Positions 56,026-60,754 of a stretch of DNA of 64,000 nt are shown here, in pieces; within the stretch, counting starts at the first letter, position 1; every line of letters begins with the position of its first letter. The DNA lies in the NCBI RefSeq assembly GCF_009914755.1, contig NC_060947.1. The stretch is one strand, 5' to 3'. A program made the position numbers and the translations under genes. This DNA is from the human T2T-CHM13v2.0 reference genome, Homo sapiens. The notes beneath the pieces are model-generated. The model made no database searches. It saw only the letters and a program-made list of their open reading frames with translations, and was not told where the DNA came from.

Positions 56026-58799
56026 CTCCACTCTTTTTGAATGGATTCAGAGTAAAACAGTTCAATGAGAAAGATGTCTCTATTTTTGATGGAAGAAACT
56101 TGAAGAAAATGGACCAGTGGAATAGAGATCTGAGTCACCACCTTGGCTTCTTCCATGAATCTGCAATGGGAGCTCCAGTCTAAGAAGAATCATCACCAGC
56201 TACAATAGCTCCCAAAAGAATGCTCAAGAGAGGACCTTTTGGGGGAATTGCATTGTGGATGTACTTCTTCCTTCTTTGATACCTCTACTTGAATAGGTGG
56301 CTTAGTTTCCTTTTTTGAGATCCTGGAGTTCTCTGCTTAATTTATGTGGGAGAGTAGCAGAAACTGGAATACACTTTTCGCCACACCTTTTGACAGGAGT
56401 CAAAAGGATTTAATCCAGTTCTCAAACCCAGGCTGCATGTCAGAATTCTCTGGCAGGCTTCCTTAAAAACATTGACATGGGTGACATCAGTGAAAATGTT
56501 GGAGCACGGAACTCTAAAAAACTGCCTTTTGGGGAACCAAGGGCCCCTTTGGCTACCAGCCAGGCTCTGCTCAAGGACACCAATCCTTCGTTTCCATCAT
56601 GTTGAGGACCTATGACCTTTGAGCTACCTTAAGTATTTGTGATAGAGACCTAGGGGCCCTTTCAGTCACCTGCCAGACCAAGCACAGAGAGCTGAGGTCC
56701 CTCTGAGCCACTAGCCTCCGCTCCCACTAAGTTAAGGGTGGACCTTCTGGCCATGAGTCAGTTCTCTGGGTCACTGGTTGTATGGCAGAATGAGAAACCG
56801 GGAACCTTTCAGGCCACAAGTTGGGAAAATTTGGCTCCCTTTAGTCACCATCAGTGCCTGCAGATGGTGCTCTGAAGGTCCTTCCAGGCACCACTCTGCC
56901 TGTGCACCCTAGGGTTCCAGCCTTCCCACTCACTGAGGAACTGACAGCACTTTAGGTCATCTGTCCCCCCATGCACTGTGGCCCTGGAATCCTTTCCTGC
57001 CTGCCTGCTGGGATTCCGGGACCCTTTGGGCCACAAGTCTGCCCAAGTGCTAGAGAACTGTGACTCCTTTTGTCCACCATTATAGCCTCATGTTGGGTGC
57101 TCCAGGAAACATTCCAGGAATTGACCTGCCCATGTGCTAGCGTCTTGGTATTCCTTCTGACCACATGCCATCCTGCTTGTTGGGGAGCCAAGGGCATTTT
57201 TGGCTACCTTCCCTCCAATGAGGGGGTGCCCAGAGGCCTTTGAGTAACTTGCCTGTCTGCACACTAGGTTATGGACTCCTTCAGACCGTCAGCAGCCTCT
57301 ATCTAAGCTGGGGAAACAAAAGTCATTTTGGCTACCGTATGACCCTCATGGTGCAAACCAGTGGAATCTTCTGCTCACACACCAACTGCCCTTTCGAGGT
57401 CTCGAGGGCTTTCTGGCCATCATCCCTCTACTTGCCAGTTATCAGGGCCACATGCAGGACTCTATATTCACGGGCACACAGGAAATGGGAGTGTGTGCAC
57501 CGGCCTGATTTTAGTATGGGGAATACCTGCCCCCTTCAGCCACCATCAGTGCCTTGAAGTTCCTCCTGGCCACTAGACTTCCCTAGCACTTGGGTTCCAG
57601 GCTCCTCCTGCCCACTAGCCTTCCAACTTGCTGTGGAACTGAAACCATTTTGGCTACCTTTCCTTCACTGTGCTGAAGCACTTGGGGCCCACGGAATCAC
57701 TAGAATACCCGTCTGCTGGAGTTGGGAGGATTCTTACAGCCACAAATTAGTCTGGGTTCCTGGTGAAGGGAGATTCCTCTCAGCCTTTGTCATTTATATA
57801 TGATTGTTCCTTGGTGGCATTCCTAGCACCAATTTGCTCTAGGACTAGGGCTCTGGTCTTCTTAAGGCTACTAACCTTTCCGCTTACTGAGGAACCAACT
57901 GAAGTTTCAGCCACCTCATCTCTGTGGTACTGTTGACACTGGCATCCATCCAGTCCCTAACCTGCTCTCCCCATGCAGTTTTGGGTTTCTTTGGGGCCAC
58001 GAGCTTGCCTGCGCGCTGGGAAATTGTGGCTCCTTTTAGCCACCACCTTATCCTTCCCCCAGCCACCTGGGGAAACTTCCAGGCAGCAACCTGAACAAGT
58101 GCTATGGTTCTGGGTGTTTTTCTTGCCATCAGGCTTCCCCTTTGCTGCTGAATAGGAGAGCATTTTAGGCCACTTTCCTGCATAGCGCTGCTGTCTGGGG
58201 AGCCCATCTTGTCACTAGTCTGGCTGCTGGGATTCCTGTCACTCTTTGCTCCACAGGCCAGCCCATGTGCTGGGAAACTATGACTCTTTTTGCTCATCAT
58301 AGTTCCTTCAAGGTAGTGCCCTGGAGGTACCTTCTGGTTTCCGGTGGTCCTTCAGGCCATAAGCTTCCCTTGAGCTGGGGAAATGGAAACTTTTCAGATC
58401 CCTTTCTTCCAGTGATCTGATGCCACGTGGGCCAACCAGTCACCAGCCTACCGGTATGCTTAGGTTGTGGGAGATACTTTAGGCCATAACCATGCTGGTG
58501 TTTTTGGGAAACATGGCTCTTCTTGGCAACCATAATACCTTATTGAGGGTGCCCTGGGCATAAGCCTTCCCTGCTGCTAAGGTTCTGGTCAGCTTCCCAG
58601 CACCAGCCTTCTCCCTTGTTGGGGAAGGGGACTTTCAATCACCTTCGCTGCAGTGTGCTGATTTGGAGGGGAGAAGGGTGATGTGGGGTGCCCATCTGGT
58701 CTATAGCCTATCCACTTGCAGAAGTTGCTGTCATCCTTTGCCACAACTTGACCACGTGATGGAAAATCTTAATTTCTTTCAGCCACCATCACATCTTCC

Positions 58800-59620
58800 T
58801 GTAACCAAGTATCTCAGCCTTGAAATGCATTTTGAAACCTTTTTCTTTCCTTTCCTTCCTAATTGCATAACGTAGCCTTGTACTTTAAAACTCTTTGTTT
58901 CTCTCTCTCTCCCACCAGGCACATCCGTGCACAGTGCTCATTTATCTAATTATGCACTTGCTTAGAGGTTTCGGGGACTGGCTCACACCTGTAATCCCAG
59001 CACTTTGGGAGTCCGAGACTGGCAGATCACCTGAGGCCAGGAGTTGGAGACCAGTCTGGCCAATGTGGTGAAACCCCATCTCTACTGAAAATACAAAAAT
59101 TAGCTGGGCATGGTGGCACATGCCTGTGATCCCAGCTACTTGGGAGGCTGAGGCAGAACTGCTTGAACCCAGGAGGCGGAGGTTGCAGAGAGCTGAGATC
59201 GTGCCACTGCACTCCAGCCTAGGTGACAGAGCGAGACCCTGTCTCAAAAGAAAAGAAAAGAAAAAAGAAATTTCAGAGGCTAATTTTGAAACAAACCAGG
59301 CATGGAGACCCAGCTGTGAAATCCTCCCACTTAGGGAGAGTTATGAACAGTTAGTCCACCACTACCAAACCAGACCTCCAGATGGATGGGCGATTACTCA
59401 AGATAGCCATTGACACCACTCCTGCAAGTTTCCTAGACCACGTTTTCATTCTTAAACCCCTTCACTCAGCCCAGAAAGCTAGAATGATCTTTTAAAGTCA
59501 TGAACCTGGCCATTCCTCAACTGCTAACATTTGAAGAAAGTTGCTTTTGCTTCTTACCACACCTGGCTTCTTATGTTTTCAGCCTCTAAGTGGCAAGCAC
59601 ATGGACTTGAGCCAGTTACA
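58800..59620 (+). mobile_element. ERV1-class solo LTR (LTR26-like) containing an Alu
   Basis: TGTAACC...AGTTACA termini; 4-bp TSD TTCC (58796-58799, 59621-59624). Confidence 0.85.
58979..59268 (+). mobile_element. AluS, slightly 5'-truncated, with an (AAAAG)n tail
   Basis: Starts TGGCTCACACCTGTAATCCCAGC; dimeric structure. Confidence 0.95.
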
Positions 59621-60754
59621 TTCCAATTAGTGCCTCCAGAGAACTTTCCAGGTATCAGCCTGCCTGCATGCCTGGATTTCTTTTGTTCTTAAGCTCACTG
59701 ACCTTCCCCCTTGCTGGGGAAACGGGTGAAGTTTTGCCCACCTCACCTGCAGTGTGCTGCTGCTCTGGGACCCATCTGGTCACTAGCCTGCCTTCCCTCA
59801 TCTATTTCTTGGGGCACAAACCTGCAGACATGCTGAAGAACTGTGACTCCTTTTGGCCAGAGTCTTTTCTTTGCCCTGTCCCCCTAGAGAACCTTCCGGC
59901 CATCAGCCTGCCTATGTGCTATGTCTCCAGTTGTCCTTCCAGCCGTCAGCCTTCCCCATTACTGGCAAACTTCTGTCACTTTTGGCTTCCGTCTCTGAAG
60001 TTTACTGATTCCATGAGTGCCTGTCTGGCCGCTAATCTGTCTGCCCACTGAGTTTTGGGGGATGTTTTAGGTCACAAGCCATCCCGTGTACTGCAAAGCT
60101 GTGGTTCATTTCTCCCTTAGTCATATTCTTGCACTGGTGCCCTTGGGGAAATTTCTGGGTACCAGCCTGCCAACATGGGACAGTTCTGCTTGTTCTTCTA
60201 GCCTTCTCCTTTGCTGTGGAACAGAGAGCACTTTAGGTCACGTTTCCTGCATAGTGCTGATGCTAGAAATAGCTTTGTGGGAGATTTTGATGAAGTTTCA
60301 TAGACCAGTGTTTAAAAGTAAGAGTGAAAATCCATGGATCCTAGGATAATTGCTTCAAACGTTGTTACTTAATAAGAGCCAAAAAGTTACTCTTTCAAAG
60401 ATGTGAGTGAAACAGTGATTTTCACACGACTGTTCTGGAATTCCTCTTAAGATTACTTTATAGGATTGAACTCCACATGGGATCCTTGTAGAACAGTGTG
60501 CCGTGCAGTCCATTGCTGTTCTACCCCTGACCACCTAGGAAAGCAATATTGGCTGAGTGCTGTTTGCATGTACACCTGAAATAAATCCCACTGTAGTTTC
60601 TAGTCCAGTGAGAAACTAAATGAAGCACTAATGGTAAAGCAGGAGAAAGCCAACAGCAAAATAACAGTGTTAATGAATATCATTGCAAATCCTCTTCTAT
60701 AATCCTGGGCTTGGCCTGTAAGCAACAGCTCCTCCCAAAGCACACATTCTGCTA

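What the first reader, a model, noticed from the sequence alone, without database searches (positions are those of the whole stretch)
56525..60270. Cryptic ancient higher-order tandem array (~42-bp monomer, ~250-bp unit)
Seen: GC content rises abruptly and a motif like GGGAACNNNGNNCCTTTTGGCCACCAGCCTGCC recurs every ~41-43 bp (e.g. 56604, 56645, 56687; 57010, 57053). One monomer variant (CCACAA...TGCTGGGAAACTGTGACTCCTTTTG) recurs at 57740, 57997, 58251, 58484, 58741, 59814 and 60072. The spacings are 257, 254, 233, 257, 248 (after removing the 825-bp LTR+TSD) and 258, i.e. about 6 monomers. Distant exact matches are AGAACTGTGACTCCTTTTG (57054, 59837) and AGCACTTTAGGTCA (56946, 60227). Abundant TG/CA with relics such as GCCTGCGCGCTGGG suggest an originally CpG-rich unit. 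I cannot assign it to a named satellite. Inference: a locus-specific fossil satellite older than the ERV1 LTR. It might be a lncRNA repeat domain (by analogy with XIST/FIRRE repeats), a protein-binding array, a decayed 14-codon coding repeat or an old L1 5'UTR monomer array. No function is shown.
Basis: partly seen in the sequence, partly recalled or inferred. Interest (0 to 1): 0.72.

Follow-up and report, generated by a model that had tools for sequence, protein, structure and literature searches.

The report
Fossil repeat array behind L1 promoter
In an intron of the autism-linked lncRNA PTCHD1-AS lies a heavily decayed 2.9-kb array of about 70 copies of a 43-base unit, found nowhere else in the genome, that starts right behind the first 48 bases of an old LINE-1 element; it is likely the dead promoter region of a one-off LINE-1 variant, and no present function is shown.

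Summary
The array is real. After removing an 821-bp LTR it holds about 70 monomers (commonest length 43 bp, not 42). Units are equally diverged (55%), carry a decayed-CpG signature, and show no codon or folding signal. Genome searches found no second copy, and XIST exon 1 does not match. New here: 56480-56527 is the 5' terminus of a dispersed old L1 family (30 genome matches, 0 control), behind a TT/AAAA site, and the array begins at its last bases. None of 25 relatives carries the array; 23 share an ordinary A-rich 5'UTR. No ORF1 and no matching target-site duplication follow. Best reading (0.5): a one-off L1 whose 5'UTR behind the YY1 start was replaced by a CpG-rich tandem repeat, then methylated and left to decay. 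Rivals: an L1-promoter-driven repeat lncRNA, or chance fusion by deletion. Dfam, orthologues and expression data could not be checked.

The parts
56463..56479 (+). TT/AAAA site and 15 nt that would be the left target-site duplication of the L1 insertion; no right partner found
   Evidence: sequence; an A-run at a similar place upstream in 19 of 25 relatives, loose pattern without a control; best downstream match 11 of 15, at background level
56480..56527 (+). 5' terminus of an old dispersed L1 family, with a decayed YY1-type site at 56493-56502
   Evidence: 30 genome matches, 0 reversed control; profile of 25 relatives scores 30.9 bits, E 2.6e-10; relative L021/L073 carries ORF1- and ORF2-like sequence downstream on the same strand
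56525..57511 (+). 5' irregular part of the array, 24 monomers, with one full 6-mer (56861-57088) and 3-mer shifts
57512..58799 (+). regular 6-mer part of the array (classes A-F, 257-bp unit), left of the LTR
58800..59620 (.). solo LTR (TG...CA) with an Alu inside (about 58975-59266), inserted into the array; 4-bp duplication TTCC at 58796-58799 and 59621-59624.
   Evidence: monomer phase continues across it
59625..60268 (+). regular 6-mer part right of the LTR; ends abruptly inside a class E monomer
60271..60750 (.). unassigned AT-rich stretch, no L1 ORF1 match, one AATAAA at 60580
60751..61245 (+). dispersed repeat read as a 5'-truncated L1 3' end (family label recalled); younger, a separate insertion
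   Evidence: 39 other genome matches shown; 69-81% identity to 14 fetched relatives; pairwise 0.75 against 0.55 for the array units

Best explanation
A single-locus, decayed array of 43-bp monomers (3-mer inside 6-mer) starts at the last bases of an old L1 5' terminus, and is likely the fossil 5'UTR of a one-off L1 variant in which the sequence behind the YY1 start site was replaced by a CpG-rich tandem repeat. [quoted passage not shown] Today it would be inert intronic DNA on the strand opposite PTCHD1-AS.
For: Terminus: (8 and 30 matches including this one, 0 in reversed controls); likeness to 7 relatives rises from 28% upstream to 79% in the pattern, is 49% in the next 10 nt outside the pattern and 24% after; L1 ORF2 endonuclease and reverse transcriptase downstream of relative L021, E 3e-15 and 1e-21. 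Mammalian L1 5'UTRs share little beyond the YY1 start, are CpG islands, often hold tandem motifs and reach 3.2 kb (PMC5381506, passages); new 5'UTRs are recruited often (PMC3600994, passages). 17 TG/CA column pairs per 257 bp against 0-7 for seven control pairs. Unit divergence (identity 0.55, K2P 0.73) equals that among five relatives' 5'UTRs (0.55, 0.75). No trend of identity with distance (rho -0.05, p 0.51).
Against: No ORF1 or tether after the array and no right-hand duplication, so the element's 3' part is unexplained. No second copy, so it was not a family that spread. 0 of 25 relatives carry the array, and their profile finds nothing in it at E 5; one relative gives a weak 39-nt hit, E 0.017. 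The array strand is A-poor (0.20), unlike the relatives' 5'UTRs (0.25-0.35). The relatives were picked with patterns drawn partly from this site, which raises their scores. The equal divergences rest on noisy alignments and possibly mixed subfamilies.
Confidence: 0.5

Rival explanations
1. The L1 terminus was kept as the promoter of a repeat-rich lncRNA (about 3.3 kb without the LTR, 56480 to near the AATAAA at 60580) that works or worked like XIST, RSX or FIRRE repeats as a protein-binding scaffold.
For: Exactly the start-site part of the L1 is kept, in sense with the array; X-linked, single-copy, nested repeats; one AATAAA 310 nt after the array.
Against: No annotated exon in the window (hub annotation); YY1-type site has two changes; no homogenisation (units 55% alike, XIST's 290-bp repeat 83%); folding z about 0 on both strands over 22 windows; an LTR was tolerated; no Rfam match apart from Alu-related ones and one weak hit far below its cut-off; no match to XIST in 9 kb. 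One AATAAA in 480 AT-rich bases is common by chance.
Confidence: 0.2
2. An independent CpG-rich minisatellite stood here; a full-length L1 inserted upstream and a later deletion joined its first 48 bases to the inside of the array.
For: No likeness between monomer and the family's 5'UTR; about 5 nt at the junction fit both sides, as at deletion ends; no ORF1 and no right duplication are expected under this reading.
Against: The break must fall in the first 50 nt of an element of several kb, just where L1 5'UTRs stop being alike; array and L1 family look equally old.
Confidence: 0.2
3. Part of a catalogued low-copy L1M 5'-end or other repeat family.
For: Many L1M 5'-end consensus sequences exist (PMC5753468, passages) and could not be compared here.
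Against: Two patterns with about 4 of 8 leave-one-out sensitivity per unit found no other array; NCBI masking leaves it unmasked apart from the Alu.
Confidence: 0.06
4. Decayed coding repeat (129 bp = 43 codons, three monomers cycling through the three frames).
For: The 3-mer level is a multiple of 3; one frame of the majority unit has no stop.
Against: 18 of 20 indels break the frame, conservation by codon position is flat (0.72, 0.67, 0.73), the 6-mer is 257 bp; no Pfam match for 3 of the longest frames; no related frame elsewhere in the genome.
Confidence: 0.04

Closest known systems
Monomer-array 5'UTRs of rodent L1 and tandem motifs in horse, elephant, hyrax and opossum L1 5'UTRs (PMC5381506, passages)
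   Same: CpG-rich tandem units at the 5' end of an L1; length within the reported range (up to 3.2 kb in cow).
   Different: Unit 43 bp with two higher-order levels, against ~200 or ~650 bp monomers in mouse and rat and 70-100 bp motifs elsewhere; a single terminal YY1-type start, which mouse and rat lack; single copy; no ORF1 behind it.
Old mammalian-wide L1 5' ends (L1M group; subfamily not determined by any search, L1M4-type from recall)
   Same: First 48 nt and the TT/AAAA context.
   Different: 23 of 25 relatives share an A-rich non-repetitive 5'UTR past +60; this copy shares none of it.
XIST repeat D
   Same: X-linked, single-locus tandem array of similar unit length (290 against 257 bp).
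   Different: No sequence match; 83% between copies against 55%; exonic, whereas this one has no annotated exon. XIST repeat A and FIRRE were not compared.
SVA/LAVA composite retrotransposons (PMC5753468, passages)
   Same: A GC-rich 35-50 bp repeat carried inside an L1-dependent unit.
   Different: No Alu-like or LTR-derived fixed parts, no tail or duplication found, one copy, far older.
Higher-order satellites such as alpha satellite (recalled)
   Same: Diverged monomers in a fixed repeating order.
   Different: About 10 units, no homogenisation, not centromeric.

Membership tests
L1 5' end | Terminal motif with YY1-type site shared with L1 copies | tested here: met
   site decayed by two changes; relative L021 is an L1 by ORF2 matches
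L1 5' end | Endonuclease-type TT/AAAA site just upstream | tested here: met
   56463-56469; common in AT-rich DNA, so weak alone
L1 5' end | CpG-island-like 5'UTR | tested here: met
   as a relic: 17 TG/CA column pairs against 0-7 controls; present CpG o/e 0.15
Full-length L1 | ORF1 and ORF2 behind the 5'UTR | tested here: not met
   no match with the relatives' profile or Pfam in six frames of 60271-60752
Full-length L1 | Target-site duplication on both sides | tested here: inconclusive
   no partner above background; may have decayed at this age
Dispersed L1 family with an array 5'UTR | Further copies in the genome | tested here: not met
Higher-order tandem repeat | Monomer classes in fixed order, more alike within class | tested here: met
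   0.57 against 0.44, 0 of 2000; 43 of 46 class calls
Named satellite or Dfam family | Match to a catalogued consensus | not testable with these tools
XIST/FIRRE-type lncRNA repeat domain | Exonic, transcribed, protein-bound | not testable with these tools
   no expression data; RefSeq lists no exon here
XIST/FIRRE-type lncRNA repeat domain | Sequence likeness to XIST repeats | tested here: not met
   0 matches at E 10 in 9 kb of exon 1 that holds the 290-bp repeat
Coding tandem repeat | Frame-keeping indels, codon-position bias | tested here: not met

The most novel reading that the evidence does not exclude
An L1 start site fused to a nested CpG-rich repeat was kept by the host as the promoter of an unannotated X-linked repeat RNA or protein-binding array, antisense to PTCHD1-AS, shared across placental mammals; equally, it records the moment an L1 swaps its 5'UTR behind an unchanged YY1 start.
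Probability: 0.15. Interest if true: 0.75.

Novelty: new variant of a known kind. Interest (0 to 1): 0.4.

Why it matters
Where L1 lineages get new 5'UTRs is open: PMC3600994 speaks of unknown sources. A junction in which the shared start site is joined to an unrelated tandem repeat is the intermediate such swaps would leave, and orthologues can test it. It also shows that a 2.9-kb nested array can sit in the finished human genome unseen by Tandem Repeats Finder. It lies in an intron of an autism-linked lncRNA, but nothing here ties it to that phenotype.

Tried and rejected
DNA searches of the genome with two array stretches found only the array itself. Five array patterns and one junction pattern gave 25 distinct off-site places in 23 loci; the unit profile extended none much beyond the seed (best 15.2 bits over 36 nt, against 65-197 for the array's own units, which trained the profile). 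A protein search with the 154-aa minus-strand frame gave five off-site hits at E above 1, none matching the model; the one I read was an unrelated retroviral stretch by recall. Rfam: Alu-related matches and one weak hit. Folding: no signal. Coding: rejected. The idea that the L1 3' piece at 60751 is the tail of the same element: rejected, it is much less diverged and does not match the 3' end of relative L073 at E 1e-3. Monomer derived from the family's own 5'UTR: no support. Pfam on 10 short frames of relatives found no L1 domain; PDB sequence search did. A profile search of the whole genome was not available, so very diverged short relatives remain possible. Literature: eight searches listed nothing on this array; supplements were not opened, and the library lacks most subscription papers.

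Full report
Observation. The region 56525-60268 is a real tandem array. With the LTR removed, short-word lag counts peak at 42-43 and 128-129 bases above dinucleotide shuffles; the peak near 250 is not above the shuffle maxima by itself. A wrap-around profile alignment tiles 70 monomers, commonest length 43. A profile trained on the 5' half finds 8 sites in the held-out 3' block against at most 1 in 100 shuffles. Outside 56400-60300 the monomer profile finds one site on each strand in the window. Tandem Repeats Finder misses the array.

Higher-order structure. From 57512 on, monomers fall in six classes in fixed order: mean identity 0.57 at multiples of six, 0.49 at three, 0.44 otherwise (0 of 2000 permutations for each level); 43 of 46 leave-one-out class calls are right. 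Class pairs A/D, B/E and C/F are closer (0.47, 0.50, 0.51), though B/C is also 0.50. The unit is 257 bp. Eight units are 48-60% identical to each other, with no trend by distance, so amplification ended long ago and nothing has homogenised them since. The LTR (58800-59620, TTCC duplicated) sits between an A and a B monomer and the phase carries across, so it came later.

What the units were. 17 column pairs per unit mix TG and CA, against 0-7 for seven control pairs; present CpG o/e is 0.15. This fits a CpG-rich unit that was methylated. There is no coding signal (18 of 20 indels break frame; flat conservation by codon position; no Pfam match for 3 frames) and no folding signal (mean z 0.0 on both strands, 22 windows).

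Copies elsewhere. DNA searches, patterns and a protein search of the whole genome gave only seed-length matches off site; profiles extended none into an array. The two tuned patterns each caught about 4 of 8 units in leave-one-out trials, so another array of three or more such units would very probably have shown. The search tool warns that counts are lower bounds, and no genome-wide profile search was possible. Nine kb of XIST exon 1, with its 290-bp repeat, has no match.

The left end. I noticed by recall that 56480-56520 resembles the start of old L1 elements and tested it. Patterns found 8 and 30 places including this one, and none with the reversed control. I fetched 25 relatives (7; 18 of the 22 new places, leaving out four identical chromosome 17 duplicates). 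Likeness starts at the same base. 23 of 25 share an A-rich 5'UTR past +60; one, L021 with L073, continues into ORF1-like (Pfam E 4e-4, just under the cut-off) and ORF2 endonuclease and reverse transcriptase sequence. A profile built from the 25 matches the window over 56475-56527 only, E 2.6e-10; the relatives were chosen with patterns drawn partly from this site, which raises that score. The first monomer begins at 56522-56525, so there is no spacer. A TT/AAAA site lies 11-17 nt upstream. The YY1-type core reads AAAATGTTGG here; the published consensus ends CAAGATGGCGGA (PMC5381506, passages), and most relatives read AAAATGGCAG or AAAATGGTGG. None of the 25 carries the array or scores well with its profiles.

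The right end. The array stops inside a class E monomer at about 60268. The next 480 bases match neither the relatives' ORF1 region nor Pfam and have no genome match. The repeat at 60751-61245 is much less diverged (0.75 among itself and nine best-hit relatives, a biased set) than the array units (0.55) or five 5'UTR relatives (0.55; two of seven left out as interrupted). No target-site partner was found.

Mechanism. Mammalian L1s keep the YY1 start while the rest of the 5'UTR is replaced again and again, and several 5'UTRs hold CpG-rich tandem units (PMC5381506; PMC3600994; both seen as passages). The locus has that anatomy: shared start, then an unrelated CpG-rich repeat of matching age. I therefore read it as the fossil promoter region of a one-off L1 variant (0.5). 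Shown: the terminus, the junction, the nesting, single copy, the later LTR. Inferred: promoter activity, growth by unequal exchange, loss of the coding part, inertness today. The missing ORFs and duplication are the weak point. A kept promoter for a repeat RNA (0.2) and chance fusion by deletion (0.2) explain the missing ORFs better, but the first has no sign of constraint and the second needs a break in the first 50 bases.

Known or new. It works like a monomer-array L1 5'UTR but fails two membership tests (no ORFs, no further copies), so it is not filed as an L1 family. It is a higher-order tandem repeat by test. Dfam could not be searched. Eight literature searches listed nothing on it; in the 2026 PTCHD1-AS paper (PMC13345903, 12 of 16 passages) I saw exon 3 as the focus and no mention of an intronic array. 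PMC9252281 (passages) and PMC5753468 (passages) gave background only. Supplements were not opened and may hold annotations of this interval. Verdict: real, apparently undescribed, probably inert; a new variant of a known kind, interest 0.4.

Noticed in passing
window 17198-17399: Two head-to-tail copies of 101 bp, 99% identical: a recent tandem duplication in old AT-rich sequence; may be polymorphic.
   Followed up: no
window 47395-47473: Three perfect copies of 26 bp, about 1.1 kb from the annotated silencer at 46067-46254.
   Followed up: no
window 18059-18411 and 21488-21673, minus strand: Two stretches like the ORF1 region of the old L1 relatives (E 1.5e-7 and 5e-7, high composition bias).
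   Followed up: no
L090 (G000:C14:17468995-17469594): The first ~20 nt of the L1 terminus occur twice in tandem at the element's start.
   Followed up: no
L005 (G000:C6:170493710-170493851): A repeat of 58-59 bp period shares a 25-nt motif with the array's C/D junction; the match does not extend, likely chance.
   Followed up: partly
G000:C17, five places: Five identical copies of the L1 terminus, as segmental duplications would give; one fetched (L093), with an Alu right behind the terminus.
   Followed up: partly
L021 2816-2922: Weak match to the array unit model (14.2 bits, E 2e-4; E 0.13) about 1.3 kb upstream of that L1's start; not reproduced, probably chance.
   Followed up: partly
window 55800-56020: Looks like a MER20-type DNA transposon by recall; not tested.
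   Followed up: no
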